DNA of 64,000 bases. It comes from Patescibacteria group bacterium (GTDB lineage Bacteria > Patescibacteriota > Microgenomatia > UBA8517). The stretch spans positions 78,047 to 142,046 of the forward strand of contig JAOAEL010000003.1 of assembly GCA_026416845.1 (NCBI GenBank). The letters are read 5' to 3'. The translations under genes and the position numbers were made by a program. Under the pieces are notes generated by a model. The model worked only from the letters and a program-made list of their open reading frames with translations, was not told where the DNA came from and made no database searches. Positions within the stretch are counted from its first letter, which is position 1, and the number at the start of each line of letters is the position of its first letter. This document shows positions 11,942-34,655 of the stretch, piece after piece.

Positions 11942-12032
11942 AAAAAAACACTCGAATGAAATTATTATAACAACAAAGTCTTTAAAATAAATTACAAAGT
12001 CAAATTGAAAAGTATAATTTAAAAAATGAAGA

Positions 12033-12512
12033 TTACTTTTTCTTAACAACAAGATAACGACTATTTTCCTCTCCTTCAGAAAAAGTTTCAACATCATCTC
12101 TTTGAGAAAGAAAAATATGAATAATCCTTCTTTGAGCTGGAGTGAGATTATACAAAGCTTGAGGCTGATTTGTCTCAATTGCACGCAAAGCAGCTTGAGA
12201 AGCAACATCCATTAAACGTTTTTTTTCTTTCTCTTTCCAATTAGCTATATCAACTATTATTCTTCTAAATTCAGAAGATTTATTTTTATAAATTAAATTA
12301 ATTATCGTCTGTATTGAATGCAAAGTTTTACCTTTTTTACCAATCAAAAGACCAACAACATCATCAAAGGGCTCTAAATTTAAAAAAAATAAATCGTCCT
12401 GAAAAACAACATTAACATTAACTTTAATCCCTAAATTTAAAAACAATTGATGAGAAATTTCTGTAATTATTTTTTTTTCTTTTTCTATTTTTTCTTGTTT
12501 TTCGTCTAACAT
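12033..12512 (-). CDS. khpB: RNA-binding protein Jag/KhpB (KH plus R3H domains)
   Basis: KH signature LLIGKKGKTLHSIQ and R3H signature LTPAQRRIIHIFL. Canonical position downstream of yidC. Confidence 0.8.
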   Translation of the reverse strand: MLDEKQEKIEKEKKIITEISHQLFLNLGIKVNVNVVFQDDLFFLNLEPFDDVVGLLIGKKGKTLHSIQTIINLIYKNKSSEFRRIIVDIANWKEKEKKRLMDVASQAALRAIETNQPQALYNLTPAQRRIIHIFLSQRDDVETFSEGEENSRYLVVKKK

Positions 12513-14587: not shown

Positions 14588-15976
14588 ATGAATACAATTA
14601 ATGATATTGATAAAGACATTTTGTGGAAAGAAACATTAGAAAGAATAAAATTAAGTGTAACCCTACCTAATTACAACGCTTGGTTCTTGCCAACGCACAT
14701 TGTTTCTATATCACAAACTACCTCTGGATACTTAATAAACATAGGGTGCTCATCAAGTTTTGTTAAAAATACTTTAGAAACAAGATACTTGGGTTTTTTA
14801 CAAGAAATACTAAAAAATTCATTACAAAAACACTGTGAATTAGAATTCTCAGTAAACACAAATCCAAATAAAATAACAGAATCACAATCAGACTCTCCAC
14901 TTTTTGAAAGTTTAATAAACAAAACAGAAAACATTGATAATAAAGTAATTTCTTGCGGTTTGAGAAAAGGTTACACATTTACAAACTTCGCAGTTTCCTC
15001 TTCAAACCAAATGGCTTGGGCAGCGGCGGAAGCAGTTGCAAACAATCCAGGAAATGCATACAATCCGCTTTTTATATGGGGTGGTGTAGGTGTTGGAAAA
15101 ACACACCTAATGAACGCAATAGGATACACAATTTTGGAATCCCAAATTGATGCAAACATATTCCTTTGCACAGGAGAACAATTTACAAATGATATTGTAG
15201 AAGGAATAAGAAATAAAACTACACAATCCGTACGTAATAAATACAGGAAATTGAAAGCTTTGTTCGTTGACGATATACAATTCATTGCAGGCAAAGACGC
15301 TGTTCAAGAAGAATTTTTCCATACATTCAATGCTTTAATTAACTCAGGTGGTCAAGTTGTACTAACATCTGACCGACCACCATCTGAAATCGCAAAATTG
15401 GAAGAAAGATTAAAAAGCCGGTTTGAAGCTGGATTAATTGTAGATATAGCTCAACCAGACTTCGAACTTAGATGTGCAATATTACAAATCAAATCAAAAG
15501 AAAAAGGAGTTGATCTAGATATGGAAACAATACAAATAATTGCAGCAAACATTAACTCCGCAAGACAAATAGAAGGATTTTTAACAAGGTTAATTACAGA
15601 AATAAAAGTGAAAGACATAGAAATAAGCCCTTCTTACGTACTTGAAATGTTAGGCAAACCCGAAAAAGAAGAAGTTAAAAGTAAAAATTCAAAATTAACA
15701 CCGGAAGAAATCATATCAAAAGTAGCTAAATACTTCACAATAAGCAAAAAATGTCTTTTAGGCAATTCAAGACAAAAAAATTTCGTTGTCCCACGTCAAA
15801 TATTGATGTATATACTTCGTGTGGAATTTGGCTTGTCTTTACAAGAAATAGGGAAAGTAATTGGAGGAAGGGATCATACCACTGTAATCCATGCTGTGAA
15901 TAAAATTAAAAAATTAATCTCGAGCGATGTGAATATCCGTGGGGATATTGAGGGGATAAAAAAAACATTCTTGTGA
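14588..15976 (+). CDS. dnaA: Chromosomal replication initiator protein DnaA
   Basis: AAA+ Walker A GGVGVGKTHLMNAIG, LFVDDIQFIAGK and the sensor region. C-terminal DNA-binding domain RQILMYILRVEFGLSLQEIGKVIGGRDHTTVIHAVNKI. Confidence 0.95.
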   Translation: MNTINDIDKDILWKETLERIKLSVTLPNYNAWFLPTHIVSISQTTSGYLINIGCSSSFVKNTLETRYLGFLQEILKNSLQKHCELEFSVNTNPNKITESQSDSPLFESLINKTENIDNKVISCGLRKGYTFTNFAVSSSNQMAWAAAEAVANNPGNAYNPLFIWGGVGVGKTHLMNAIGYTILESQIDANIFLCTGEQFTNDIVEGIRNKTTQSVRNKYRKLKALFVDDIQFIAGKDAVQEEFFHTFNALINSGGQVVLTSDRPPSEIAKLEERLKSRFEAGLIVDIAQPDFELRCAILQIKSKEKGVDLDMETIQIIAANINSARQIEGFLTRLITEIKVKDIEISPSYVLEMLGKPEKEEVKSKNSKLTPEEIISKVAKYFTISKKCLLGNSRQKNFVVPRQILMYILRVEFGLSLQEIGKVIGGRDHTTVIHAVNKIKKLISSDVNIRGDIEGIKKTFL

Positions 15977-16194
15977 ATTAACTGAAAATTGTCTACTTAT
16001 CAACAAATCTTGATATTTTATCCACAATTTTACTAACAATTAAATTAAATTTAATATAAACATAAAGTATAGAATTCAAACAAATCTGTTAATCCACTTT
16101 TCCACATATTACTATTACTACTACTTCTTTTAAATATACTAATTAAGTAAAAAATTCAATTGAAAATAAGAGACAAAAAATTTATACTGGTTTT
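15977..16194. promoter_or_regulatory. dnaA-dnaN spacer with consensus DnaA boxes (second oriC candidate segment)
   Basis: Perfect TTATCCACA at 16017-16025. Related ttaatccac at 16089-16097 and tttccacat at 16099-16107. AT-rich. Confidence 0.55.
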
Positions 16195-17322
16195 ATGAAA
16201 GTTGAAGTTAATCAAGAAGATCTGGTTCAAAAATTAGCAATATGTTCTAGATTTACAACTTCAAAAGTACAATTGCCCATATTAGCAAATGTCCTGATTA
16301 CAGCAACTTCTAACAAAATTACATTAAAAGCTACAAATCTAGAGAGCTCCATCAGTTTTAGTATGGGTTCAAAAGTGATTGAAGAGGGAAGTATAACAAT
16401 ACCATCAAAAACTTTTTACGAAATTGTCTCTAATTTATCCAAAGGAGTTTTAACTTTAGTTGCTGAAAAAGAACAGTTACATATTTTTCAGGAAGGATAT
16501 AATGCTTTGCTTGTAGGAATAAACAGTTTGGACTTTCCGGATGTGATTTCAACACCTCCAAAAGAAGGTATGTCATTCCAAGGGAAAGAAGCAATAGAAA
16601 TTTTTCAAAATGTTCTTTTTAGTGTGTCTTCTGACGAAGCAAGACCTGTTTTGAATGGTGTTTTGTTTATTTTTGATGATCAAGAAAACATTGTTTTTGT
16701 ATCAACTGATGGCTTTAGACTCACCAAATTTGTCAAAAATATCAAAAAAGAAAATAAAAATGTAAATAAATTATCTGGTAGAATAATTATACCCAAAAGC
16801 ACTCTTGTTGAAGTATCAAAGATTTTTCAAGAAAATACTTTTACACTTAGCTTGATTGAAAAGGATAAGCAAGTTGTTTTTTCAGACGGTCTTTCTTGTG
16901 TTTTATCTTCAAGGATAATAGAAGGAGAATTCCCAAATTTTGAAAAAATATTGCCTAAAGAATCAAAATTGACTTTAAACGTCTCTAGAGATGATTTTTA
17001 TCAAGCGATTAGATTAGCTTCTGTTTTTGCCAAAGATTCTTCTAATGTAGTTACCTTTGATATAAAAAAAGATGATATGTTTGTAAAATCAGAAAATTCA
17101 ACAACTGGCAAACAATCAAAAAGAATTTTCTTTAAAAGGGTAGAGGGAACTGAAGAAGAAATGAAAATTTCCTTTAATTTTCATTTCTTAGATGACTTGT
17201 TAAAAGTAATTAAAGGTGAAAGCTTGGAAATAAGAATTTCATCCCCATTTTCTCCAGTTTTGTTTTTAGATCCTATTTGCAAAGAATTTATACATGTCAT
17301 AATGCCAATTAAAACTCTTTGA
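16195..17322 (+). CDS. dnaN: DNA polymerase III beta sliding clamp
   Basis: 375 aa, directly downstream of dnaA. Three-domain clamp length. Motifs such as RPVLNGVLF and STDGFRL. Confidence 0.9.
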   Translation: MKVEVNQEDLVQKLAICSRFTTSKVQLPILANVLITATSNKITLKATNLESSISFSMGSKVIEEGSITIPSKTFYEIVSNLSKGVLTLVAEKEQLHIFQEGYNALLVGINSLDFPDVISTPPKEGMSFQGKEAIEIFQNVLFSVSSDEARPVLNGVLFIFDDQENIVFVSTDGFRLTKFVKNIKKENKNVNKLSGRIIIPKSTLVEVSKIFQENTFTLSLIEKDKQVVFSDGLSCVLSSRIIEGEFPNFEKILPKESKLTLNVSRDDFYQAIRLASVFAKDSSNVVTFDIKKDDMFVKSENSTTGKQSKRIFFKRVEGTEEEMKISFNFHFLDDLLKVIKGESLEIRISSPFSPVLFLDPICKEFIHVIMPIKTL

Positions 17323-17338
17323 TTTTTCTTATCTCTTA

Positions 17339-18640
17339 TTATTGGATTTTTACCTTTTTTGTTTTGCCTTCGAAATCGATTATATAAATATTATTTTCAA
17401 CTATTCCTTGAATATATGTGACTCCGCTATTTTCCGTACCAGAAATTTTTATTCTTGGCGAAGTTTGTCCTGATCTAGTATCTAAGTAAAAGTATTCCGT
17501 TCCTGTTGTTGTATTTTCCATAAATATAATTATATTATTATCTTTCCATATGCCAATTAAACCTGTTTTTGGGAATTTAATTTGTTGAGATTTATTTGTT
17601 TCAATATCATAAATTGTAATGCCATTTGATGAAATTGAACAAACCTTTTTTCTATCTGGAGAGACTGAAAAACTATTTTGTTTAGATTCAAATAAAATTT
17701 GATTTTTATCAAGATCTATTACTTGGACTTCTCCACTATCTAGGGCTTCTCCTATTTCAACTAAAGCAACTATTGAATCTTTTAAAGCAAATACTTGGTT
17801 TGCTTCAGTCATCAAAATCTGAGAAGGTTTAAAATCATCCAAATTTGATTTGTATAATATCGACATTTTTGTTTGAGGCGTATAACTGCCAATTACATAC
17901 AAATTTTCATTATCTTCTGATATAGAGATAGATGAAATAGGAGTCAGCAGTTCGCTTCCTTTTAGTTTTTTTACTGCTCCAGTATTTATATTTATTAAAA
18001 CAATTTGATCATTTTGTTCAATTTTTCTTTCTAAAACTGCAATATAATTTTTGCCCTTTTGGTATGAAAAAACACTTTTAGGGTACAGAACTGTGACAAA
18101 TTTTTCGTCTGTAACTTTTACTAAACTTTGTTCTCTTGGATCGATGGCAAGAAAAGAACTTTCTGATATTGGTGTTATTTTTATATATTGACTTTCGTTT
18201 ATTGATACTGGCACTGATGAAACTTCTTTTGCAACTTCTTGTATTTTTTCAAGAGATATTTCTATTTCAGTGTCTTTATATAGATCGATAATTTCTTTTT
18301 TGTCTATGTAGTTTTGTTCTGAAATTAATATTTCGTATTTTCCTTTTGGAAGGTACAATTTAACTTTTCCTGATCCTTTTTCTTCGTTATTTAAGTATAT
18401 TTTTGCTGTAGAAGGGTCTGTTTTTACACTTAGGTAGAATTGTTTAATTTCACTTTTTTTTAAATTATTTGTTTTTTCTTGATTTAGATAAATTCCATAA
18501 ACTGCTAGGAGAAAAATTGTTACAAAAAAAACAATAAACAATATTTTATGTTTAAAAATAAAATTTGTAGCTTTTGATAAAAAATCCTGATTTTGGTACA
18601 TTGCTTTTTTATTATATATACAATTATTATATATATACAA
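17339..18640 (-). CDS. Hypothetical membrane-anchored protein with a PEGA-like domain and a beta-propeller-like (TolB/WD40-like) C-terminal region
   Basis: N-terminal TM (ILFIVFFVTIFLLAVYGIYL). PEGA-like KIYLNNEEKGSGKVKLYLPKGKYEILISEQNYIDKKEIIDL. Repeated beta-strand-rich segments. Last gene of the minus-strand VirB4 operon. Confidence 0.45.
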   Translation of the reverse strand: MYIYNNCIYNKKAMYQNQDFLSKATNFIFKHKILFIVFFVTIFLLAVYGIYLNQEKTNNLKKSEIKQFYLSVKTDPSTAKIYLNNEEKGSGKVKLYLPKGKYEILISEQNYIDKKEIIDLYKDTEIEISLEKIQEVAKEVSSVPVSINESQYIKITPISESSFLAIDPREQSLVKVTDEKFVTVLYPKSVFSYQKGKNYIAVLERKIEQNDQIVLININTGAVKKLKGSELLTPISSISISEDNENLYVIGSYTPQTKMSILYKSNLDDFKPSQILMTEANQVFALKDSIVALVEIGEALDSGEVQVIDLDKNQILFESKQNSFSVSPDRKKVCSISSNGITIYDIETNKSQQIKFPKTGLIGIWKDNNIIIFMENTTTGTEYFYLDTRSGQTSPRIKISGTENSGVTYIQGIVENNIYIIDFEGKTKKVKIQ

Positions 18641-18671
18641 TTTTAATTTTAAGTTATTATAACTTTAACTA

Positions 18672-21638
18672 CTACCTACATTCTGCATATGCAATTCTAG
18701 ATCCTGGACATTGATTTTCTCTTCCTTCACACCTGTTGTATCTTTCTATATTATTATTGAAATCTGTGGATGGGCAAGTATCCCCGTCTCCACCCACAAA
18801 ACATGCTCCTCTTGCCGGATTTCTATTTATGGCAAAATGTAAATGCTCTGGAGAACCGGGTCTGCTAGCAGACCCGGTTCTATCGGTTGTTCCTAATATT
18901 TGACCTGCTTCTACTCTTTCATTTTCTGAAACAAATATCTCACAAAAGTGAGCATAATAATGGTAAAATCTTCTTCCACTTTGATCTATACTTTCAATTG
19001 CTAGGTTTTTGCCACCTATTGGGTCTATTCTACGATTTCGATTATTTCCAACAACCCAGATTACTCTTCCAGATGCATAAGCAACAACTGCAGCTCTAGC
19101 TGGAGGACTTCTATCTGATGAAACCCCGCTTGGAAATATATCAGTTGATCTGAATCCATCCCAATGAACACACGCATTTCCACTCATTCCTTCTGTTGTT
19201 CCTGAAAATGGGGCTACAGGAAAAGCGTATCTTTGATTATTTGACATCAATACCCCTGTAGGAGTTGGGATTGGGTTAGGAATTGGTCTTATTTCATTAC
19301 AATTATCGACTTGTGGAGCGTTGCCTACAGAAATACAATGGGTATCTGAAACGACTTGTGTCTGATTTGTATTTTCTATTGTTGCTGAAAGCCTTATTGT
19401 GTCACAGACTAAAGAATTAGAATGACTTCTATTAATTCGTATTGAATAATTTGTGACATATTGTCCTATTCCTATTTCACTTGGAATATTTGGAGATCCA
19501 AGAATTTGAGCAGGTTGGTTTTGCGATACGGGTCCAGAATTAGATTGTCTATTAGGTAGTATGGTATAAGTATTAACAAAAGAAACGTTCGTTAAGTTTT
19601 GATTAGTAATTATTGTTATTGTATAGATTACTTCTACTTCTTCTGTTGGATTTTGTATTCTGCTTACTGGTGAACTTTTATCAATTATTATGTTTTCGGA
19701 TTGATTTATTCCTTGCCTTCTTAAAATTAGATCATTTGCTTTGGGAACAACCAATCCACTTGTGTTTATTACAAGCAAAACAAATGCTACAAAAATTATT
19801 ATACCTGCTAATGTTATAGAAAAGAGTATAAGAATTTGTGTAATTAAAATTATGGATAAAGAAGTAAATATTCCTATTAAAATGGAGATTGTTTTGCCTA
19901 GAATTTTGCCTATACCCTTAATATATTTGACAGGATCTTTTAAGAAGTTTATTATTTCGGGCAATATTGTTGCTATTAAACCTAAACCGCCTGTTGCTAA
20001 AGCTGAACCTGCTTTTACCAATAAGCTGGCTAATCCTTTGGCAATTGTGGACTTTGCTAGTTGAAATGTTGTATTTCTTGCCAAAGCGGCAGCTCCTCTT
20101 TTGATTATGTTTCCTCCTATTTTTTGGGTTGCGCTTGGTAGAAGTCCCTTTATTTTTCTTGCTTTTTCGTAAAAATTTCTTAATTGAGGGATTGTATTTA
20201 GTATTTCTTGATTCTTTTCAAATAGTTCTATTATATCTGATGCTCTTACTGATAAAACAGATTGTGTTAGTTGACTGTCTGTAGGTATTTGATAGTTTTT
20301 ACTTTCGCCAAATTTTTCTAAAGCTTTTCTTGTTATTTCATAGCTTCCCGTGTAGGCGTCGATAGAGGGGTCGAGAGGCAAATTATTTTTTGAATCAAAG
20401 AGACCTGATTTTTGTAATTCTTGGTTTATCAAATCTCTTCGCCGAATGGCTTCCTTAATTTTTGGATTTTCTTTTGCTATTTTTTCAGCGGCGCCTGGAT
20501 ATATGCTTGCAAAATATAAAAACTGTTGTGATTCAACGAACTTTTTTATTTTATCATATGTTTCAGTTGGATTTAAATTTAATTGATTTTGTAGTTCTTC
20601 CCCTTGTTCTCCGGTTGAAATTGATTGAACTAAATAATCTGTAGCTTTGTTTATCCTAATTTTTCTATCTTCCAAAAGGAGTTCTGGGGTTATATTTTCT
20701 ATTTTCGTTTTTAAAATGTATGTTGTTGGGGGAATATATTCCGTGTTTGTTGATCCTTTTGATAAGTTTACTTTTCCTGGAAGGTTGTTATCTATCCATC
20801 CTGGGTTATTTATGACAATTTCTGAGTCTTGTTCATTAAATCCGCTTAGTAGTGAGACACGAATTTTGCTATCTTTTTGTTTTTCTTTGTAAACATTTTG
20901 ATTTTTTGATGAAATTTGTTTGACTTCTTTTTCTTTTTCTTCATAATCTTGGGATTCCGAAGCTATTTCTGCCAAGATTTCTATTGCTGTTCTATATTTT
21001 TCTTGCAAAATTTGATCGTATTTACGAAGATCTTTTTCATATTCAGCATCGAGTTGCATTTGTATAGATTCATTTCCTGATGGATCTATTTTTCTAACCG
21101 GTTTTTTAGCTTTTTGAAAAATGATGCTGTATCTTTCATCAGTTGTGTTTGTTAATAACATCGCTTCTGTAATGACTTGATTTGGGTCTAAAAATTGAAG
21201 ATTTTTAATAATATTTGCGGCTATTAAGGCTCTTGAACTCGGAAACTTTGCTATTTTTACCGGTTTAATGTCTTTGCTTAATTTTTGATTTTCATTTTTG
21301 TATTGATAAAAATTTTCTTCTTTTGGAATTTTCTCGCTTTGCTTTTTTTGGATTTGTGTAATTGTTTCCTGTTTTCTAGGAAAATTGTTTCCGTGTATCA
21401 AAATTGTTTGATCGTATATTTTTCTTTTTTCAGGGTTTCTTAATGTATTGTAAGCTTCGGTTATATATTGAGCTGCTTGTAAAGCTTTTTGCTGATTTTC
21501 TGAATCGCTATTAACATGAAGGTCAGGATGGTATTTTTGTATCGCATTTCTGTATGCTTGTTTTATTTCTTCAAAAGTTGCATTTTCTGTAACTCCAAGT
21601 CTTTGATAATAGTTCATTTCCGGAAAGTTGTTGTTCAT
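18672..21638 (-). CDS. J-domain (DnaJ-like) - coiled/low-complexity linker - TM - M23 (LytM) metallopeptidase fusion protein
   Basis: N-terminal J domain with HPD (YYQRLGV..EEIKQAYRNAIQKYHPDLH). Long TM stretch (~aa 580-640). C-terminal M23 motifs (YHYYAHF..., GTTDRTGSASRPGSPEHLHFAI). The C-terminal third is visibly more GC-rich. Confidence 0.7.
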   Translation of the reverse strand: MNNNFPEMNYYQRLGVTENATFEEIKQAYRNAIQKYHPDLHVNSDSENQQKALQAAQYITEAYNTLRNPEKRKIYDQTILIHGNNFPRKQETITQIQKKQSEKIPKEENFYQYKNENQKLSKDIKPVKIAKFPSSRALIAANIIKNLQFLDPNQVITEAMLLTNTTDERYSIIFQKAKKPVRKIDPSGNESIQMQLDAEYEKDLRKYDQILQEKYRTAIEILAEIASESQDYEEKEKEVKQISSKNQNVYKEKQKDSKIRVSLLSGFNEQDSEIVINNPGWIDNNLPGKVNLSKGSTNTEYIPPTTYILKTKIENITPELLLEDRKIRINKATDYLVQSISTGEQGEELQNQLNLNPTETYDKIKKFVESQQFLYFASIYPGAAEKIAKENPKIKEAIRRRDLINQELQKSGLFDSKNNLPLDPSIDAYTGSYEITRKALEKFGESKNYQIPTDSQLTQSVLSVRASDIIELFEKNQEILNTIPQLRNFYEKARKIKGLLPSATQKIGGNIIKRGAAALARNTTFQLAKSTIAKGLASLLVKAGSALATGGLGLIATILPEIINFLKDPVKYIKGIGKILGKTISILIGIFTSLSIILITQILILFSITLAGIIIFVAFVLLVINTSGLVVPKANDLILRRQGINQSENIIIDKSSPVSRIQNPTEEVEVIYTITIITNQNLTNVSFVNTYTILPNRQSNSGPVSQNQPAQILGSPNIPSEIGIGQYVTNYSIRINRSHSNSLVCDTIRLSATIENTNQTQVVSDTHCISVGNAPQVDNCNEIRPIPNPIPTPTGVLMSNNQRYAFPVAPFSGTTEGMSGNACVHWDGFRSTDIFPSGVSSDRSPPARAAVVAYASGRVIWVVGNNRNRRIDPIGGKNLAIESIDQSGRRFYHYYAHFCEIFVSENERVEAGQILGTTDRTGSASRPGSPEHLHFAINRNPARGACFVGGDGDTCPSTDFNNNIERYNRCEGRENQCPGSRIAYAECR

Positions 21639-21787
21639 ATATTTTTGGTTTTTATTTGTACATTATATTGTTTTATTACCGTAATTTAACTTAATTATTT
21701 GCAAAATTTTCATTAGACTGATAATTAAATTATTATTAGATTAATTAAATTATTTGCAAGTGTTAATAAGTAAAAAATTTTTGTTAC

Positions 21788-23674
21788 TCATGTTTTTCTT
21801 TGTAGTAACTCTTGAGGTTTTGTTGTTATTAGTTTATGTTCTTCAGGTGATGCGATTACAGAAATTGGTACATGATTATTGCCTGCAAAAAATATGCCTT
21901 GTCCAATATTACTTCCTAGAAGTAATTGTTTTTCTCCTTGAGACAAATAAAAAACTTGTGTTATTTTATCGATTGCAGCTGGAGATTGTTTAAAAAGTAC
22001 TCTAAGAGCTGCGTTTGTAACTACTGCTTTTCCTATATCTTGGCTTAAAAAATCTTCAACATCTTGTGTAATTGTTGTAATTCCCAAGTAATATTTTCTT
22101 GCTCGTTTTACAATTGACCAGAGAAATTGTGCGCTATCTGAATAACGCATCATATGCCATGCTTCATCTACTATTAGAATACGAGGCTTTAGTTCTTTTT
22201 TTACTCTAGTCCATATATAATCAAGAATTATAAACATTGCTATGGGTCTTAATTGATCTTGTAACTCTCGAACTGAAAAAACGGTAAATGGGTTTGTAAT
22301 ATCAAATGTTGTTTGTTGATCGAATATTCCTACATAACTGCCTTTTACAAATTTTTCTATTCTAGCTGCCAAATCTAGTGCTTCAGTAGTTTCCATACCT
22401 ATTAAAATTTTATATAGATCTTCAATTAAAGGTGGTTCTTTAGTTTGTGTTTTTGGATCTTGAGTAATTCCTTTAGATTTATAGGTGGCTACTAAGGCTC
22501 GATCTAAAATAGCTTCTTGATATGGACTTATTTCTCCCATAATTATTTTAAATAATGAATGTAGTGAAAGTATTTTTAAACCTAGTTGATTTTCTCCTTC
22601 TTCGTTTATGTAAGATAAATCAAATGGATTTATTTTTACAGCTGAATTAAATGAGAAAGAAAGGTACTGTCCGCCAACTGCATCGCAAAGTGTTTTGTAT
22701 TCGTTTTCTGGATCAATTATTATTATGTTTGTTCCTAACATTAAACTTCTTAGTGCTTCGAGTTTGACAAAATAACTTTTACCGCCACCTGAGCTTCCAA
22801 ATATGACCATGTTTGAATTTTCTAATGAAAATCTATCAAAGACTATAAAAGATCCATTTTGAGAATTGATGCCATACAAAACACCTTTGTCGTGTGAAAG
22901 CTCGGCTGAGGTTAAAGGAAACATTGTTGCGAGTGAAGTAGTATCCATATTTCTTGTTATAGATAATCGATCCATTCCAAATGGCATTGTTGATAAAAAT
23001 CCATTTTCCATATCTAAAGTTGCGTGTTTTGCTGTTACCAAAACTGAACCGAGTGTTGATTCTATTTGTTTTGTTATTTGATTTAATTGTTCAAGACTTG
23101 CTGCTCTAACTGTTACATAAAATGAAAACTCATAAAAATGTTCTATTCCTTTAACCAATTCTTGTTGAAGCCTTCTTGCGTCTTCCAATTTAGCTTCAGT
23201 TGATGGATTTAATATCTTGCCTCTTTCCAAATCTGTTGCGATTTCTGCTTCCATTTCAGCTATTTTGCGCATTAAATCATTTAAAACATCTTTTCCTTTT
23301 ACAGGATAAATAAAAAATGAAATATCTAAAGAGCTATTAAAGTTAACTAATTGTTCTAACCAGCCCGGAGAAACAAATCTAGGATATCCAGATATAAACA
23401 AGGATCTTAAATATACATCGCCTATTTTTATGTGGTCTAAATCTATTTCTATTTCATTTGTTGCAATTACATTTACAAGTGGAACTCTTTCTTCAAACAC
23501 CGCTTTAGCAATATTGGGGTATTGTGGTTTTTCTCCATGTATTAAAATTTCTTCTTGATTTTCATGATTTTCATTTTTTGATTCCTTTTTTTTTATTACA
23601 GTTTCTGTTATGGGATCAATTGTAAAGTTTATTTCTTCTTTTTTTTGAAAAGGTAAAAAACTTATATTTTTCAT
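21788..23674 (-). CDS. VirB4/TrbE/TraC-like type IV secretion ATPase (central and C-terminal ATPase portion)
   Basis: Walker A FGSSGGGKSYFVK, Walker B ILIVDEAWHMM, and the conserved VirB4 block YLGITTITQDVEDF. Confidence 0.8.
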   Translation of the reverse strand: MKNISFLPFQKKEEINFTIDPITETVIKKKESKNENHENQEEILIHGEKPQYPNIAKAVFEERVPLVNVIATNEIEIDLDHIKIGDVYLRSLFISGYPRFVSPGWLEQLVNFNSSLDISFFIYPVKGKDVLNDLMRKIAEMEAEIATDLERGKILNPSTEAKLEDARRLQQELVKGIEHFYEFSFYVTVRAASLEQLNQITKQIESTLGSVLVTAKHATLDMENGFLSTMPFGMDRLSITRNMDTTSLATMFPLTSAELSHDKGVLYGINSQNGSFIVFDRFSLENSNMVIFGSSGGGKSYFVKLEALRSLMLGTNIIIIDPENEYKTLCDAVGGQYLSFSFNSAVKINPFDLSYINEEGENQLGLKILSLHSLFKIIMGEISPYQEAILDRALVATYKSKGITQDPKTQTKEPPLIEDLYKILIGMETTEALDLAARIEKFVKGSYVGIFDQQTTFDITNPFTVFSVRELQDQLRPIAMFIILDYIWTRVKKELKPRILIVDEAWHMMRYSDSAQFLWSIVKRARKYYLGITTITQDVEDFLSQDIGKAVVTNAALRVLFKQSPAAIDKITQVFYLSQGEKQLLLGSNIGQGIFFAGNNHVPISVIASPEEHKLITTKPQELLQRKT

Positions 23675-23676
23675 AA

Positions 23677-24357
23677 TTAGAAATCATCTTCCGCGGTTTT
23701 AACTGGCACTTCTGGATTGTATACATTATAAAAAAGTTTCAGTAATTCTTCATCGTTAAGTTGTTTTAGTTTGATTGACAACCTGTTTGCCTGTCTTATT
23801 AGGTGATCTCTTTTGGGGTGGAGTGAAATCTTTGCTTTTCTAACAACATAAGATTTAGGATACGGAATTAAGGCTACACCTTTTTTTTGATTAGGGGAAA
23901 ACATGCTTAGTGCAAAAGAATTTTTTGCAAGACCAAGTTCGTATGGATAAAATGGAATGGTGATATAAAATTTTTTGCTCAATATGTTTCGTTTTTTTAT
24001 TGCTTCGTTTATGAAGTTTTTGTAGTCCATCATAATTTGTGCCAATTTTTCGTTTTTGATTTCTTTTTGTTTTTCTTCCAAATATTTCATGTAGCTAGAA
24101 ATATCTTTTTTTTGAGAACTTACTGTAATTTGTATTGGAAATGAAAGCGAGTTTAAAAGTCCAGCATAGGATACTATTACAGCTTCTTGTTCGTTTTCTG
24201 ATAGTAGTCCAAAATTAAGGGAAGTGGACTCCATTACTATTGCAGCTCCTCCATTTTTGTAAAATGCTATTCCATCTGTTATGTCTATAACAGGTACAAG
24301 TTCTTGAGAAGCGACTTTTAACGGTTTGTCAGGTGTAAATATAAAAGGAATTTTCAT
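23677..24357 (-). CDS. VirB4 N-terminal domain-like protein (separate ORF; stop-2 nt-ATG junction with the ATPase ORF)
   Basis: LVPVIDITDGIAFYKNGGAAIVMESTSLNFGLLSENEQEAVIVSYAGLLNSL resembles the N-terminal membrane-proximal domain of VirB4/TrbE. 226 + 628 aa together make a full-size VirB4. Confidence 0.5.
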   Translation of the reverse strand: MKIPFIFTPDKPLKVASQELVPVIDITDGIAFYKNGGAAIVMESTSLNFGLLSENEQEAVIVSYAGLLNSLSFPIQITVSSQKKDISSYMKYLEEKQKEIKNEKLAQIMMDYKNFINEAIKKRNILSKKFYITIPFYPYELGLAKNSFALSMFSPNQKKGVALIPYPKSYVVRKAKISLHPKRDHLIRQANRLSIKLKQLNDEELLKLFYNVYNPEVPVKTAEDDF

Positions 24358-24373
24358 TATTATTTTTTTTTAA

Positions 24374-25387
24374 TTAAATAGGGCTTATGATTAATGGTTT
24401 TAGAATCTCGCCTTTCAAAATAATTGTTATTGGTTCGAATTTATAATTTTCTTTTTCTGTCAAGATTTGATACTGACCATTTGCAAGAGGTGTTATAATT
24501 GCGAAGTGTCCTAAACTATTGCTTTTTAAAGCTCTAACTGGCAACCCATTTTCATCTCTAATTTCTATAATTGCGTTTTCGATTATTTTTCCGTCTTTTG
24601 TTATAACTTGACCTACAACAGTATTGGGTTGTGTCGGAAAAGCAGGGTGTGTTTCTGTTGAAAATTTTGCCGTTTGAGTTTGTTGGAAAATTATTTCTCC
24701 TAATATTGGTTTAATTTCTGAGTTTTGCGTGAATCTATCTATTTGTTTTGGTTCATAAACATAAGAGTTTTGATCTTTTACTTGATTTATTATACGTACA
24801 TTTTGTGTTTGTGGAATAGAAATTTCAGTTTTATTTACACCAGATAAATCTTTTTGAATTGCTTCTAAAGGATTTTCGTTTATGTGCTTGTCAACTTTAT
24901 TTAAAAATGCTGCCTCTTTTTTTTCTAGCACAGCTTGCCAAGAATAGCTTGTTTTTTGTTTGATTTCTTGATTGTTTGTTTGAATTTCTAAATCATTACT
25001 TGAAGTGTTTTGAGTAATTTCTTGTTCTTTGTTTTGGAATTGTTGTAATTCTGCTTGATAGGATGGAAGTTCGTCTTGAAAATAATACGGTTTTTGGTAA
25101 TTAGCTTGCCATTCGTAGAGAGTTGGTGAATAAATTGATTTAAAAAAAAGAATTATCCAACGTGAAAGTGGTCTGTCTTCAACAGGGAAAAAAGCTAAAG
25201 CAATACCTAATAAAAAGGCAAACAGCATTAATGGCCATTTGATATAGGATGGAAGTCCCGATGAATACAAAATCAATGCAACCAACGTGCCACCAGCAAC
25301 TTGGAAGAATTGTTTTATTGTCATATCTCCTACCAATTTGAATTGGTATGAAGATATTTGTTGGGGAATTGCATGTTCTTGGTCCAT
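24374..25387 (-). CDS. Membrane protein. N-terminal two-TM VirB3-like segment plus C-terminal carboxypeptidase-regulatory/Cna-B-like beta-sandwich.
   Basis: Two hydrophobic helices (GGTLVALILYSSGLP; PLMLFAFLLGIALAFFPV) placed directly upstream of VirB4, as for VirB3/TrbD. C-terminal GQVITKDGKIIENAIIEIRDENGLPV..GHFAIITPLANGQYQILTEKENYKFEP fold motif. Confidence 0.4.
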   Translation of the reverse strand: MDQEHAIPQQISSYQFKLVGDMTIKQFFQVAGGTLVALILYSSGLPSYIKWPLMLFAFLLGIALAFFPVEDRPLSRWIILFFKSIYSPTLYEWQANYQKPYYFQDELPSYQAELQQFQNKEQEITQNTSSNDLEIQTNNQEIKQKTSYSWQAVLEKKEAAFLNKVDKHINENPLEAIQKDLSGVNKTEISIPQTQNVRIINQVKDQNSYVYEPKQIDRFTQNSEIKPILGEIIFQQTQTAKFSTETHPAFPTQPNTVVGQVITKDGKIIENAIIEIRDENGLPVRALKSNSLGHFAIITPLANGQYQILTEKENYKFEPITIILKGEILKPLIISPI

Positions 25388-25608
25388 AGTAATTAGTTTG
25401 TTTAAGTTAAGTTATAAGTTAATAGAATTTTTTACATTTATTTTGAATTTTTTAATTTAAAAGTTATAATTGTACAAGAAAAATTTAATTTAGGCTAATT
25501 TGTGATAGAGTCTTAATCTAGATTTATATATAGTATTTTATATAATATAATTTTTAAAGTGGTTTAATAATTTTAAATAATTTAATAACTCTAGTTTAAA
25601 TAGTGTTT

Positions 25609-27993
25609 ATGGATAATGAAAGTAACAAAAATTTACCGCAATATGATCGTTGGTCCTTTGATGAACTTTTGGGTATGGTAGAGAACAATCCGTATAACGA
25701 AGAGTGCAAGCGGGAATTTGAAAAAAGAAAAGAAATTTTAAGCAATGACAATCGTTTAGTTCAAAAAATTTTAGAAGAATTTTATTCTCTAATAAGAAGT
25801 GGTGAACTTTTTCCAAACTTTAAGGAAATAGAGGGTCGAATACTTTCAGAGTTTCCGAAGTTTGATTCTGATAAGTATAAAGGAATGATTGCTGACACAG
25901 TTAAATCTGTTTTTGAAGAATTTAATTTTAGAAGAAAAATAGGAACTAGTTTTCAAAAATTTGAAAGAGATAAGCTAAATGAAAAACAGAGAAAAACTTT
26001 TGAAAATATTTTATCTCATCGATATGTAAATGTAACTATAGATTGGACTATTGTAGATTTAGATTTAATAGTTTATGGTAGTGATCGAGAAAATATAGCT
26101 AGAGAAGGGTATCAGCAAGTAATAAATTTGCTTTTGCAAATTATTCAAGACAAGAAACGAAAAGATGACGATAGAATTAAAGCCGGTGATGCAATTCGAT
26201 CAATTTTCAAAGAATTGGGTAGAGAATTAGGGCTAGAATGGGTTGGCAGTTTTTTAGATACACTAGAAAGCATAATTAATGATCCAAATTTCAAATCTAA
26301 GAATGATTTAATCAAAAGCTTAAAAGCATTTATTGACATTATGGAATATAGTGTTTATCCGCATAATGGCTGTTTAAAAATTGAAACAGTTGAAAAATTG
26401 CTACACAAATATCTCAGTGTTAGACAAAAATATGGAGGAATTATAAATGCTTTGTTATCAGGTTTAATTCGGTACGCTGAAGTTATGACAAAAGAAGAAA
26501 AAGATAAAAATGAAGAACTTGATGACATTAAAAAGTTTGAGATTTTGGTTAATCCAAAGTACTTGGAATTTTTTGACAGAATTGAATCTGATGATCAAAA
26601 AAGAGCGGAACAAATAATTAGTTTTGCCGGAAAAGAAAAGGAAAAGCAAGTTGACAAAGAAAAACCACAAGTTGAGGAATCTTTGCATATAGAAATTTTT
26701 AGTTTGTTGTCAAAAATTTTAGATTCAGATATCCCTATAGTCCCAAGGCAAAGTTTTGAATTACCAGGTTTAAATTCTGGTTGGGTTCAAAAAACTTTAT
26801 TTCAGGAAATTATTAGTTTAAATGAAAAAAATAAAGATGAAAATTTCAGAAAATTTGTAGAATCCGTTTTGTCAATTGTTGATTCTTACTCTGTGTTAAA
26901 AATGTGTTTAGAATCTTCTGGTAATGATTTAACAATTTTTGGACAGCGTGTCAGAATGTGTTACCTAACTGAAGAATTAAAGGAATATCTTGTTACTCCA
27001 GATAAAATACTTTGTGCTTATTCTGATCATAGATTAGTTGTGCCTTTCGCTTTGGAATTGCTAAAGCGTGCTAGCACTGACAATGGTTTAGATGGGTTAG
27101 GAAGATTGAACGCAAGACAACCAGGAGAGAGCAATGCTCAGTTTGAAGCCAGAATAAAAAATATAAAAGATAGAATTCTTTTGGAGCTAAAGAATGAGTG
27201 TGAAAATAAATTAATTGCTGGTTTAAGTTTAAAAATTGCGGAGAAAATTGCTAAGATTACATTTTTAGAATTTTTTTGGGATAATCAGTTTTTACTTGGA
27301 AAAATATCGAAAATGATGAATTTTAAAGAATATAGAGAGAGATTAAAGGATAGCGGTGATGTTGGTCCGAAGGATACTATTGAGATAATTCCAACTTTAT
27401 TGTCTCCTTTTAATAAGTATGAGAGAATTGAAAATGGGGGAGAAGATTTTGATATAAAAACTGTTCAAGACATTGAACGTTTATATTTTGGTAGTAAGAA
27501 AGAATCTTTGGATTTATCCGAAGATTTTAAAAATTCTGGTAGATACTCTTGGCTCGATTATTGTTGTGTTGTTATTCCAAAATCTGCCAAAGCTTTTGAT
27601 CGACTTTTAAATACTAATCCGCCACAAACGCTAGAAGAGGCTGAAGCTATAGCAACTGAATTAAATAGCGCTGATCCTAAAGGACGTTTCCGTTTGCTTG
27701 TTATATATATGTTGGGAATAATTCGCACAAATGATGCAAATGAAAAATTTGATCCTCGTAAGTTTCGATCTTTTTTTTATCAATACAGTTTAAAAAAAAC
27801 AATTTTAGGACGATTTTTGCCAAAATGGTTAATTAATATTTTTGACACTAGAGGTAAAAGAACTGTGGAGTACATAACCGAAGAACAAGAAGAATGGCTT
27901 TATTATAAAACCAGTGGAATTGGAAATTTTTTTGAAAAATTTGAAAAATCTGTCAATTTACCTCCGATAAAAAACAAGAACAAAGAAAATTGA
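25609..27993 (+). CDS. Hypothetical K/E-rich soluble protein (796 aa by the track from GTG 25603; first ATG at 25609)
   Basis: Long uninterrupted ORF on the opposite strand, embedded in the T4SS-like locus. No recognisable motif. Confidence 0.4.
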   Translation: MDNESNKNLPQYDRWSFDELLGMVENNPYNEECKREFEKRKEILSNDNRLVQKILEEFYSLIRSGELFPNFKEIEGRILSEFPKFDSDKYKGMIADTVKSVFEEFNFRRKIGTSFQKFERDKLNEKQRKTFENILSHRYVNVTIDWTIVDLDLIVYGSDRENIAREGYQQVINLLLQIIQDKKRKDDDRIKAGDAIRSIFKELGRELGLEWVGSFLDTLESIINDPNFKSKNDLIKSLKAFIDIMEYSVYPHNGCLKIETVEKLLHKYLSVRQKYGGIINALLSGLIRYAEVMTKEEKDKNEELDDIKKFEILVNPKYLEFFDRIESDDQKRAEQIISFAGKEKEKQVDKEKPQVEESLHIEIFSLLSKILDSDIPIVPRQSFELPGLNSGWVQKTLFQEIISLNEKNKDENFRKFVESVLSIVDSYSVLKMCLESSGNDLTIFGQRVRMCYLTEELKEYLVTPDKILCAYSDHRLVVPFALELLKRASTDNGLDGLGRLNARQPGESNAQFEARIKNIKDRILLELKNECENKLIAGLSLKIAEKIAKITFLEFFWDNQFLLGKISKMMNFKEYRERLKDSGDVGPKDTIEIIPTLLSPFNKYERIENGGEDFDIKTVQDIERLYFGSKKESLDLSEDFKNSGRYSWLDYCCVVIPKSAKAFDRLLNTNPPQTLEEAEAIATELNSADPKGRFRLLVIYMLGIIRTNDANEKFDPRKFRSFFYQYSLKKTILGRFLPKWLINIFDTRGKRTVEYITEEQEEWLYYKTSGIGNFFEKFEKSVNLPPIKNKNKEN

Positions 27994-34268: not shown

Positions 34269-34655
34269 TTATCTGCTTGGTCCTCCTGGTCTGGTATCTC
34301 TTCTTTGAGTTTCCCATTCAGGGCAAGGATTTATTCCATTATATATTCTAAAGCTTGTGATTGTATTTCCTGCTCCTGTGAATGTTGCGATTAAATTTAT
34401 TATAAAAAACGAAAGCACAATAACTACAAGTCCTCCAATAGCATAAGTTAGAGTGCTTTTTGCCTGCTCGACTTTTTGAGAGTTTCCTTCAGATGTTATG
34501 TATTTAAAGCCTCCTATTATTAGATATATAAAAAGTACAATTCCTGCGAATCCCAAAACGTAGCTTAAAATAGTTCCAAATATGTATTCAAGTTGACAGA
34601 GTTGAGCTGCTTCTCTTGTTTGTGTTTGTGCTTTTACTAAACCTGAAAAAAACAT
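34269..34655 (-). CDS. Small two-helix membrane protein, VirB2/TrbC-type pilin-like candidate
   Basis: 128 aa with two long hydrophobic helices (FGTILSYVLGFAGIVLFIYLIIGGF; IGGLVVIVLSFFIINLIATFTG) separated by a short polar loop. First gene of the operon with the 1475-aa protein and the VirB6-like protein. Confidence 0.4.
   Translation of the reverse strand: MFFSGLVKAQTQTREAAQLCQLEYIFGTILSYVLGFAGIVLFIYLIIGGFKYITSEGNSQKVEQAKSTLTYAIGGLVVIVLSFFIINLIATFTGAGNTITSFRIYNGINPCPEWETQRRDTRPGGPSR

What the first reader, a model, noticed from the sequence alone, without database searches (positions are those of the whole stretch)
18672..21638. Unusual J-domain - transmembrane - M23 peptidase fusion inside the T4SS-like operon
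A single 988-aa ORF joins a canonical cytoplasmic DnaJ J-domain (HPD motif) through a ~500-aa low-complexity/coiled linker and a long hydrophobic stretch to an extracytoplasmic M23/LytM metallopeptidase (HxxxD...HLH motifs). T4SSs normally carry a dedicated cell-wall hydrolase (VirB1 lytic transglycosylase/CHAP). Here an M23 enzyme would take that role and additionally bring an Hsp70-recruiting J-domain to the cytoplasmic face of the apparatus. The M23 part has noticeably higher GC than the rest of the gene, which suggests domain acquisition.
Basis: partly seen in the sequence, partly recalled or inferred. Interest (0 to 1): 0.7.

Follow-up and report, generated by a model that had tools for sequence, protein, structure and literature searches.

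The report
T4SS cell-wall hydrolase carrying a J-domain
This real 988-residue membrane protein of an ultrasmall (Patescibacteria) bacterium has an Hsp70-recruiting J-domain inside the cell and a cell-wall-cutting M23 enzyme outside, and it belongs to a large, unnamed protein family that always sits just after the VirB4 motor gene of these bacteria's secretion machine.

Summary
ORF 18672-21638(-) is intact, with a canonical J-domain (HPD; Pfam 62 bits) and an M23 domain (39.7 bits; lysostaphin/LytM fold). A single long TM helix separates them. Cysteines are absent from the N-side and abundant, in even numbers, on the C-side, which supports J inside and M23 outside.

- There is no literal HxxxD; motif 1 is H-x7-D.
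- The "linker" contains two folded helical domains.
- The GC rise lies in codon positions 1 and 2 only (GC3 flat), so it gives no sign of foreign origin.

The protein belongs to a large Patescibacteria family (454 representatives) defined by a TM helix plus a β-sandwich. The family gene lies just downstream of VirB4 in 43 of 43 testable metagenome loci, with dnaN beside it in 45 of 45. The hydrolase module varies (M23 in about half; Amidase_2, M14). The J-domain occurs in about 13-14% of representatives.

Best reading: a PrgK/VirB1-like hydrolase subunit of the oriC-proximal T4SS that also tethers DnaK to the machine. I found no paper reporting this J-domain link. It is a new variant of a known kind.

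The parts
18672..21638 (-). Whole ORF, 988 aa: J-domain, cytoplasmic helical domains, TM helix, β-sandwich, M23 peptidase and Cys-rich tail
21384..21629 (-). J-domain (aa 4-85), with HPD at aa 37-39
   Evidence: Pfam DnaJ 62.3 bits; pLDDT about 90; Foldseek hit 2dmx; 41% identity to the E. coli DnaJ J-domain
21237..21383 (-). Disordered, K/E/Q-rich linker 1 (aa 86-134)
   Evidence: pLDDT below 50; not alignable among homologues
20913..21236 (-). Helical cytoplasmic domain 1 (aa 135-242), including a ~50-residue helix; absent in P0003
20739..20912 (-). Disordered linker 2 (aa 243-300)
20139..20738 (-). Conserved all-helical cytoplasmic core (aa 301-500; motifs LLEDR, GEQGE, DPSIDAY). It is clade-specific and has no detectable relative
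19899..20138 (-). Gly/Ala/Lys-rich amphipathic segment (aa 501-580), probably associated with the membrane surface; its last part is net positive
19761..19898 (-). Transmembrane helix (aa 581-626), ending in the family anchor motif (INTSGLVVP here; FIINSGAYVVPP in the consensus)
   Evidence: Modelled as one continuous helix. I624, N625 and P632 are nearly invariant
19314..19691 (-). Extracytoplasmic β-sandwich (aa 650-775), the family-defining module; carries conserved Cys745 and Cys768, with conserved Cys780 just beyond it
   Evidence: pLDDT 90 or higher. This is the region matched in hundreds of representatives. Weak DUF7507 matches occur in relatives
18816..19166 (-). M23 metallopeptidase domain (aa 825-941); inferred zinc and catalytic residues are H825, D833, H897, H932 and H934
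18675..18815 (-). Cys-rich C-terminal tail (aa 942-988; five Cys), modelled with low confidence
21788..23674 (-). VirB4-like ATPase immediately upstream (149-nt gap)
   Evidence: P-loop_TraG, AAA_10 and CagE_TrbE_VirB matches. 91% identical to the VirB4 of L001 and L003
23677..24357 (-). 226-aa TraC-like small protein, a conserved member of the operon
   Evidence: 89% identical in L003; counterparts in L005 and L007 carry precomputed PF26593 TraC-like hits
24374..25387 (-). PrgI/VirB3-like membrane protein with a C-terminal CarboxypepD_reg-like domain
17339..18640 (-). Downstream 433-aa membrane-anchored protein with a PEGA domain. An ORF of about 330-370 aa occupies this position in the look-up loci L005, L006, L007 and L009, but its sequence is not conserved
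14588..17322 (+). dnaA and dnaN, which mark the replication-origin region beside the T4SS locus
   Evidence: dnaN is adjacent in 45 of 45 related loci
34269..34655 (-). VirB2-type T4SS pilin at the far end of the cluster
   Evidence: PF18895, 40.6 bits

Best explanation
The ORF encodes a bitopic membrane protein that is the dedicated cell-wall hydrolase subunit of the oriC-proximal, Gram-positive-type (MPF-FATA-like) T4SS of a Patescibacteria bacterium. Its role is analogous to VirB1/PrgK.

The first ~580 residues are cytoplasmic. A single long helix (aa 581-626) crosses the membrane. The β-sandwich, the M23 zinc endopeptidase and the Cys-rich tail lie outside and are disulfide-bonded. The M23 domain cuts peptide cross-links in peptidoglycan locally, so that the channel or pilus can pass the wall.

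On the inner face, a class-C (type III) J-domain with an intact HPD recruits DnaK-ATP and triggers its ATPase next to VirB4. This concentrates Hsp70 activity at the base of the machine. DnaK could hold or unfold secretion substrates there, or it could assemble and remodel the cytoplasmic complex.

Shown: the domain identities, the topology signature, the fixed synteny with VirB4, and the recurrence of the architecture. Inferred: catalytic activity, DnaK recruitment, and what DnaK does there.
For: - **Domains and folds:**
- **Catalytic set:** The query has all five.
- **Topology:** one continuous TM helix. The flank before the helix carries net charge +4 and the flank after it +1. There are 23 Cys in 71,879 N-side residues against 1,180 in 47,148 C-side residues. 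C-side counts are even in 148 of 150 members, and all 10 query Cys lie after aa 745.
- **Synteny:** VirB4 is directly upstream in the window, in L001 and L003, and in L005, L006, L007 and L009. It is also upstream in 43 of 43 metagenome loci with enough sequence, 41 of them within 100 nt. dnaN is adjacent in 45 of 45.
- **J-domain recurrence:** Pfam finds DnaJ in 17 of 121 representatives and a local HMM finds it in 20 of 150. HPD is intact at the aligned position in 13 of the 20, and P0070 has HPD in a second J-like copy.
- **Literature:** monoderm T4SS hydrolases such as PrgK have the same plan of an intracellular N-terminal domain, a TM segment and extracellular hydrolase modules (PMC11323569, PMC12857230). 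In Southlakia a long protein next to VirB4 with a C-terminal cell-wall peptidase lies in the essential T4SS cluster (PMC10633639 supplement; PMC12102498). J-domain proteins confer a specific cellular location on Hsp70 (PMC3486835 abstract).
Against: - There is no biochemical evidence for any step.
- Motif 1 is not canonical (H-x7-D), and H825 lies at the edge of a low-confidence segment of the model, so zinc binding is not certain.
- The LytM domain of PrgK, the closest precedent, is catalytically dead and has a regulatory role (PMC11323569).
- Most family members work without a J-domain: none of the 80 metagenome loci has one.
- HPD has decayed in about 6 of the 20 J-bearing representatives. 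DnaK recruitment therefore cannot be a core requirement of the machine.
- No dnaK gene lies in the 64-kb window, and I could not inspect the rest of the genome.
- Adjacency to VirB4 does not prove a physical or functional association.
Confidence: 0.6

Rival explanations
1. The hydrolase is aimed at the host. It is presented at the epibiont-host contact site and cuts the host bacterium's peptidoglycan so that the T4SS or pilus can reach the host membrane. Its rapid divergence and module swapping would track differences in host wall chemistry. This reading is compatible with the J-domain part of the main explanation.
For: - The protein is only 39-44% identical between genomes whose VirB4 is 91% identical and whose TraC-like protein is 89% identical.
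- The enzymatic module differs among relatives: M23, Amidase_2 or M14. A differently folded peptidase sits next to VirB4 in Southlakia.
- Identity in the hydrolase module is incongruent with identity in the core.
- The T4SS is essential for epibiotic growth in Southlakia (PMC10633639).
Against: - The enzyme is tethered to the producer's own membrane by a TM helix, and the linkers and β-sandwich give it limited reach.
- The cytoplasmic parts diverge quickly as well.
- Nucleotide identity over VirB4 is only about 79%. The contrast therefore largely reflects strong constraint on VirB4, not demonstrated positive selection.
Confidence: 0.2
2. The J-domain works in cis for the protein's own biogenesis. 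The TM helix emerges only after about 580 residues, so the ~360-residue C-terminal part must be exported post-translationally. A built-in J-domain would load DnaK onto the protein's own disordered or unfolded segments to keep it competent for insertion.
For: - The TM helix comes late, and there are two long disordered stretches.
- The J-domain is an optional accessory in the family. That fits a helper role better than a core mechanical one.
Against: Family members with equally long cytoplasmic regions (N-side lengths of 550-720 aa) lack a J-domain, so insertion does not generally need one.
Confidence: 0.12
3. The M23 domain is a non-catalytic scaffold or regulator, like the LytM domains of PrgK, SpoIIQ, EnvC and NlpD. 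It would organise the wall-spanning part of the machine or control another hydrolase.
For: - The PrgK LytM domain is degenerate and regulatory (PMC11323569).
- SpoIIQ (3tuf) and EnvC (4bh5, 8c0j) appear among the structural matches.
- The spacing of motif 1 is not canonical.
Against: - All five zinc and catalytic positions are occupied in the query and conserved across the family, unlike the degenerate LytM factors.
- No second hydrolase was recognised among the operon genes scanned.
Confidence: 0.12
4. The fusion is an artefact: two genes were joined by a sequencing or assembly error.
For: None found.
Against: The same continuous architecture is present in independent assemblies from different samples and lineages.
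Confidence: 0.01

Closest known systems
PrgK of pCF10, and other VirB1-like hydrolases of monoderm (MPF-FATA) T4SSs such as TraG of pIP501 and Orf14 of Tn916
   Same: - It is a bitopic membrane protein encoded inside the T4SS operon.
- It has an intracellular N-terminal region, one TM segment and extracellular cell-wall hydrolase module(s).
- PrgK even includes a LytM/M23 domain (PMC11323569, PMC12857230).
   Different: - There is no SLT/muramidase or CHAP domain; M23 is the only recognised enzyme, and it keeps its catalytic residues.
- It has a family-specific β-sandwich after the TM helix.
- The cytoplasmic region is far larger (about 580 aa) and carries a J-domain.
- No sequence homology to PrgK was shown.
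SEML1_0007 of Ca. Southlakia epibionticum (Wang et al. 2023)
   Same: - It is a long protein (over 1,100 aa) encoded next to the VirB4 homologue SEML1_0008.
- It lies in the essential T4SS cluster SEML1_0006-0019.
- Its only recognised domain is a C-terminal cell-wall peptidase.
   Different: - The peptidase has the Hedgehog/DD-peptidase (M15B-like) fold, not M23.
- No J-domain is annotated.
- I could not obtain the sequence, so its membership of the TM plus β-sandwich family is untested.
Membrane-tethered class-C J-domain proteins: E. coli DjlA; Sec63 and Pam18/Tim14 in eukaryotes
   Same: A J-domain is fixed to a membrane or a transport machine, so that Hsp70 acts at one defined place (established knowledge; PMC3486835 abstract).
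   Different: - DjlA has the opposite order (N-terminal TM, C-terminal J). The NCBIfam DjlA score is 27.9 bits against a cut-off of 162.
- Sec63 and Pam18 act on the trans side of a translocon to pull substrates. Here the J-domain is on the cis (cytoplasmic) side.
- None of them carries an enzyme on the far side of the membrane.
Lysostaphin, LytM, zoocin A and EnpA (M23B endopeptidases)
   Same: - The fold is the same, with TM-scores normalised to the target of 0.5-0.66.
- There is sequence similarity to zoocin A (E 5e-5).
- The HxH motif and the catalytic His are conserved.
   Different: - The first ligand pair is spaced H-x7-D, not HxxxD, and there is an insertion after the Asp.
- The domain is membrane-tethered, not secreted.

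Membership tests
J-domain (Pfam PF00226) | Profile match above the curated threshold | tested here: met
   62.3 bits against 27.8, covering profile positions 1-63 of 63
J-domain (Pfam PF00226) | His-Pro-Asp tripeptide between helices II and III | tested here: met
   HPD at aa 37-39; invariant in P0001-P0005
J-domain (Pfam PF00226) | Compact helical J fold | tested here: met
   pLDDT about 90 over aa 4-85; Foldseek hit to the DNAJB8 J-domain 2dmx, TMt 0.66
J-domain (Pfam PF00226) | Stimulates the ATPase of the partner Hsp70 | not testable with these tools
   Needs biochemistry. No dnaK was seen in the window
Canonical DnaJ (class A/B Hsp40) | G/F region, zinc-finger domain and C-terminal substrate-binding domains | tested here: not met
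   NCBIfam DnaJ equivalogs match only the J-domain, at 59 bits against a cut-off of 377. No DnaJ_C or DnaJ_CXXCXGXG match in Pfam. The protein is therefore a class-C J-domain protein
DjlA and TopJ | Full-length equivalog match | tested here: not met
   DjlA 27.9 bits against 162; TopJ 38.3 against 300 and 33.2 against 512; all matches cover the J-domain only
Peptidase M23 (PF01551) | Profile match above the curated threshold | tested here: met
   39.7 bits against 28.7, aa 846-940
Peptidase M23 (PF01551) | M23 β-fold | tested here: met
   44 PDB matches at E of 1e-3 or better, all M23/LytM-type proteins except the cyanophage pre-ejectosome chain 9k2v_A
Peptidase M23 (PF01551) | HxxxD zinc-ligand motif | tested here: not met
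   No HxxxD is present. The aligned pair is H825...D833 (H-x7-D), and the family consensus is H-x6-D. The residues are present but the spacing is not canonical
Peptidase M23 (PF01551) | HxH motif and the additional catalytic His | tested here: met
   H932-L-H934 and H897. These are conserved in 96-104 of 104 family sequences
Peptidase M23 (PF01551) | Zinc-dependent peptidoglycan endopeptidase activity | not testable with these tools
   Needs a zymogram or muropeptide analysis
VirB1-like hydrolase of monoderm T4SS (PrgK/TraG type) | [quoted passage not shown] | tested here: met
   Directly downstream of VirB4 in the window and in 43 of 43 testable related loci
VirB1-like hydrolase of monoderm T4SS (PrgK/TraG type) | N-in/C-out bitopic topology with the hydrolase outside | tested here: met
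   Prediction only: a single TM helix and the Cys partition
VirB1-like hydrolase of monoderm T4SS (PrgK/TraG type) | SLT/muramidase and/or CHAP domain; homology to the TrsG or CD419 profiles | tested here: not met
   No SLT, CHAP or lysozyme-type Pfam match. The TrsG and CD419 profiles themselves were not available. I therefore file it as an analogue, not a homologue
VirB1-like hydrolase of monoderm T4SS (PrgK/TraG type) | Required for T4SS function and interacts with a VirB8-like subunit | not testable with these tools
   Needs genetics or pull-downs
Unnamed Patescibacteria TM plus β-sandwich family (defined here) | Anchor motif (F-I-I-N-S-G-A-Y-V-V-P-P type) followed by a Cys-bearing β-sandwich | tested here: met
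   The query has INTSGLVVP and the nearly invariant I624, N625, P632, K654, N663, Y672 ... C780

The most novel reading that the evidence does not exclude
No coupling protein (VirD4) or relaxase was recognised in this T4SS cluster. In such machines, the J-domain on the hydrolase subunit could make DnaK a working part of the secretion apparatus. In this reading an Hsp70 docked beside VirB4 selects and unfolds protein substrates and feeds them to the channel, taking over the job of the missing coupling ATPase. This would be the first bacterial secretion machine with a built-in Hsp70-recruiting subunit.
Probability: 0.12. Interest if true: 0.85.

Novelty: new variant of a known kind. Interest (0 to 1): 0.6.

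Why it matters
- **An open question in the field:** Patescibacteria T4SSs are essential for epibiotic growth in the one cultivated, genetically tractable case (PMC10633639). What they transport, and how, is unknown. The published survey could not find a VirB1 equivalent consistently associated with VirB4 (PMC12102498).
- **A candidate for that missing component:** this analysis points to a large, unnamed family of membrane-anchored hydrolases fixed immediately downstream of VirB4.
- **A new mechanistic lead:** a minority of these proteins carry a canonical J-domain on the cytoplasmic side. That links the Hsp70 system to a T4SS and can be tested directly with an HPD point mutant and a DnaK pull-down.
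- **Adaptation to wall chemistry:** the interchangeable enzyme modules (M23, Amidase_2, M14) suggest adaptation to wall chemistry, possibly the host's. That bears on host range.

Tried and rejected
- **GC as evidence of acquisition:** rejected. GC3 is flat along the ORF.
- **Two or three TM helices in the 55-residue hydrophobic stretch:** a simple hydropathy scan could not resolve this. The AF2 model gives one helix, and the Cys partition settles which side each part is on.
- **Word-indexed homology searches:** the core-region query found nothing, not even the protein itself. The family-alignment query returned only one protein. The word index appears to saturate (my inference). The exhaustive profile search was what revealed the family.
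- **Genome-collection scan with the whole family alignment:** With the six-member clade it returned only one true locus, so the J-plus-core clade is rare among species representatives.
- **Promoter and terminator scan around the gene:** counts matched the shuffled controls, so it was uninformative.
- **PHROGs:** only generic J-domain and peptidase matches, with no phage link.
- **Diversifying selection:** nucleotide identity over VirB4 is only about 79%, so the contrast between 91% and 40% amino-acid identity cannot be read as positive selection without proper dN/dS analysis.
- **Literature on a J-domain in a T4SS hydrolase:** three searches found nothing relevant.
Full report
**1. The observation**

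The ORF is real and lies exactly where stated: 18672..21638 on the minus strand, 988 aa, starting at ATG. The window has 32% GC, so stop codons are frequent and an open frame of this length is not a chance event.

Pfam places a DnaJ domain at aa 9-76 (62.3 bits against a gathering score of 27.8). It places Peptidase_M23 at aa 846-940 (39.7 bits against 28.7). NCBIfam models of full-length DnaJ, DjlA, TopJ and HscB match only the J-domain and fall far below their cut-offs. The protein is therefore a class-C J-domain protein, not a DnaJ orthologue.

HPD is at aa 37-39. The C-terminal 209 aa match zoocin A and the M23 region of a cyanophage ejection protein in PDB sequence space.

**2. Structure and topology**

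I built an AlphaFold2 model with a 61-sequence family alignment (mean pLDDT 71). It gives:
- a confident J-domain (aa 4-85);
- a disordered stretch (87-131);
- a helical domain (135-242);
- a second disordered stretch (243-300);
- a confident all-helical domain (301-500);
- a poorly modelled Gly/Ala/Lys-rich amphipathic segment (501-556);
- one continuous 46-residue helix (581-626);
- a confident β-sandwich (650-775);
- a low-confidence linker;
- the M23 domain (about 831-940);
- a low-confidence Cys-rich tail.

Foldseek against the PDB returns M23/LytM proteins (lysostaphin, LytM, EnpA, Csd1-Csd2, ShyA) and a J-domain.

The hydrophobic stretch is long enough for two helices, and an even number of spans would put M23 in the cytoplasm. 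I therefore looked for independent evidence on topology.
- Across 150 family representatives there are 23 cysteines in 71,879 residues before the membrane anchor and 1,180 in 47,148 residues after it.
- The count after the anchor is even in 148 of 150.
- All ten cysteines of the query lie after aa 745.
- The flank before the helix has net charge +4 and the flank after it +1.

This is the signature of a cytoplasmic N-terminal part and a disulfide-bonded extracytoplasmic C-terminal part.

**3. The M23 active site**

There is no literal HxxxD. A naive pairwise alignment to zoocin A puts a Gly where the first His should be.

This shows a family-specific motif: H-x6-D-I in the consensus and H825-x7-D833 in the query. 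The equivalents of lysostaphin H32, D36, H82, H113 and H115 are conserved in 72, 95, 104, 97 and 96 of 104 sequences. In the query they are H825, D833, H897, H932 and H934.

The catalytic set is therefore present, unlike in degenerate LytM factors. H825 sits at the edge of a low-confidence segment of the model, so zinc binding remains an inference.

**4. GC content**

GC does rise from about 0.30 to about 0.40 over the M23 part. The rise is in codon positions 1 and 2. GC3 there is 0.13-0.19, no higher than in the rest of the gene. This is amino-acid composition and gives no evidence of recent acquisition.

**5. Relatives**

The word-indexed search found only the protein itself (annotated at NCBI as a DnaJ domain-containing protein of a Patescibacteria MAG) and two relatives at about 40% identity. 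One of them, P0002, has Amidase_2 in place of M23.

An exhaustive profile search with the core, TM and β-sandwich region found 454 representatives at E ≤ 1e-3 and 256 at E ≤ 1e-10.
- Only about six share the cytoplasmic core.
- The rest share the TM helix and β-sandwich. The anchor motif is of the FIINSGAYVVPP type, and several positions are nearly invariant, including three Cys.

Among 121 representatives scanned with Pfam, 63 have M23, 17 have DnaJ, 4 have Amidase_2 and 1 has M14. No other cytoplasmic domain is recognised.

A local J-domain HMM finds 20 of 150.
- In distant members the J-domain often lies 100-160 residues from the N-terminus.
- HPD is intact at the aligned position in 13 of the 20.
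- It has decayed (PPD, HSD, APD, EKS, TSG, ASK) in about six, and P0070 has HPD in a second J-like copy.
- J-bearing members form several small groups in a tree of the β-sandwich region.
- The cluster of one of them (P0070) also holds a Woesebacteria protein, listed in UniRef as "J domain-containing protein".

The architecture is thus recurrent, patchy and unstudied.

**6. Genomic context**

In the window the operon on the minus strand reads: PrgI-like, a 226-aa TraC-like protein, VirB4, this gene, then a PEGA-domain membrane protein. dnaN and dnaA follow on the other strand, and a VirB2-type pilin lies further along. rnpA, yidC and an RNase H gene lie beyond dnaA.

The same order is seen in:
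- L001 and L003, the close clade;
- L005 and L007, which are distant and carry a J-domain;
- L006 and L009, which are distant and lack one.

A metagenome scan with the anchor motif gave 80 loci.
- All 43 loci with a complete 5' end and at least 1.5 kb of upstream sequence have a VirB4 homologue upstream on the same strand. In 41 of them the gap is 100 nt or less.
- All 45 loci with at least 2.5 kb of downstream sequence have dnaN on the opposite strand within 2.5 kb.
- None of these 80 loci has a J-domain. The sample is biased towards one consensus-like clade.

The family is thus a fixed component of the oriC-proximal T4SS locus described for Patescibacteria (PMC12102498).

**7. Rate of change and module exchange**

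Between the window and L003, VirB4 is 91% identical, the TraC-like protein 89%, the PrgI-like protein 59% and this protein 44%. Nucleotide identity is about 79% over VirB4. It is detectable in this gene only over the core, at 67-70%. This shows weak constraint relative to VirB4. It does not prove positive selection.

Identity by region is incongruent:

| Relative | Core identity | Hydrolase module |
|---|---|---|
| P0006 | 26% | 58% (M23) |
| P0003 | 52% | 32% (M23) |
| P0002 | 54% | a different enzyme (Amidase_2) |

The hydrolase module has therefore been exchanged among family members.

**8. The cytoplasmic core**

I modelled aa 296-505 separately (pLDDT 77, pTM 0.73, all helical). It has no meaningful relative:
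- BFVD gives nothing at E ≤ 1e-3;
- a PDB sequence-profile search gives nothing better than E = 0.26.

Its function is unknown. A docking surface for VirB4 or the TraC-like protein is a guess.

**9. What is known**

Monoderm T4SS hydrolases have the same general plan. PrgK of pCF10 has an intracellular N-terminal domain, a TM segment and extracellular LytM, SLT (a muramidase) and CHAP domains. Its LytM domain is degenerate and regulatory (PMC11323569; PMC12857230).

The survey of Patescibacteria T4SSs found VirB1 homologues poorly associated with VirB4 in most classes. It suggested that other enzymes might fill the role, citing peptidase and lysozyme homologues downstream of virB4 in Southlakia that are essential for epibiotic growth. 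In the Southlakia supplement, SEML1_0007 lies next to the VirB4 homologue SEML1_0008. It is longer than 1,100 aa, and its only recognised domain is a C-terminal Hedgehog/DD-peptidase fold. I could not test whether it belongs to the family defined here.

Neither paper mentions a J-domain. Three literature searches found no report of a J-domain in a T4SS component.

**10. Mechanism**

Best supported: the protein is the VirB1/PrgK-like wall-opening subunit of this T4SS. It is anchored N-in/C-out, and M23 cuts peptide cross-links outside the membrane. The J-domain, held at the inner face next to VirB4, recruits DnaK-ATP and triggers hydrolysis, so Hsp70 acts locally on secretion substrates or on the cytoplasmic complex.

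- Shown: domain identities, the topology signature, synteny and recurrence.
- Inferred: enzyme activity, DnaK recruitment and its purpose.

The J-domain is absent from most family members and has decayed in some, so it is an accessory and not a core part of the machine.

The rivals, weighed in the Rival explanations section, are:
- a host-directed hydrolase;
- a cis-acting J-domain that serves the protein's own late membrane insertion;
- a non-catalytic LytM scaffold;
- an assembly artefact, which is excluded.

**11. Verdict**

Three details were wrong (the HxxxD motif, the nature of the linker, and the GC argument), and the wider picture was missed. This is one variant of a large, VirB4-linked Patescibacteria hydrolase family with interchangeable enzyme modules.

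The J-domain link between Hsp70 and a T4SS appears unreported and is directly testable. I rate it a new variant of a known kind, with interest 0.6.

Noticed in passing
L007:3673-7962: In a Woesebacteria-type locus the TraC-like small protein and VirB4 are called as one 1,429-aa gene. It also carries an intein (precomputed Intein_splicing and LAGLIDADG_3 hits) inside the ATPase.
   Followed up: no
window 14588-25387; L006, L007, L009 and L010-L089: The T4SS operon abuts dnaN/dnaA, with rnpA, yidD and yidC beyond, so it sits at the replication origin. dnaN is adjacent in 45 of 45 related loci. This agrees with the proximity to dnaA/dnaN reported in PMC12102498.
   Followed up: yes
window 25603-27993 (+), 28004-29728 (-), 29817-34244 (-): Three large ORFs (796, 574 and 1,475 aa) lie between the PrgI-like gene and the pilin gene and have no Pfam match. 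A ~700-800-aa ORF on the opposite strand occupies the same position in L006 and L009. No VirD4-type coupling protein or relaxase was recognised among the cluster genes scanned.
   Followed up: partly
window 24374-25387 (-) compared with L003:2057-3082: The PrgI-like protein is mosaic. Its N-terminal ~115 aa (membrane part) and its C-terminal CarboxypepD_reg-like domain are well conserved. The middle ~130 aa is almost unalignable between genomes whose VirB4 is 91% identical.
   Followed up: partly
Family members P0020, P0024, P0026, P0035, P0038, P0053, P0056 (C-terminal domains): A second C-terminal subtype has a Cys-rich lead-in and the motif C-x-Q/Y-Y-G-Y-A-Y-D-V, in which the first zinc-ligand His is replaced by Gln or Tyr. 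About 45% of family members have a C-terminal domain that Pfam does not recognise at all.
   Followed up: partly
P0006 N-terminus (alignment A6, columns 1-100): The closest relative without a detected J-domain aligns 'KRVPDTITD' against 'YHPDKATD'. It looks like a decayed remnant of a J-domain. Together with the PPD, HSD and APD variants elsewhere, this suggests repeated loss of Hsp70-stimulating ability.
   Followed up: partly
L005:1647-2487: A HepT-like and nucleotidyltransferase (MNT-type) toxin-antitoxin pair lies directly upstream of the T4SS operon in one related contig.
   Followed up: no
window 2084-3856 (+): A VanW-like protein with a PG_binding_4 domain (590 aa) is another cell-wall-related gene in the window. 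It is not linked to the T4SS cluster.
   Followed up: no
window 11516-12208 (-) and 12033-12512 (-): An RNase H / RVT_3-type ORF (230 aa) overlaps a second 159-aa ORF on the same strand by about 175 nt. One of the two may be spurious or have a mis-called start.
   Followed up: no
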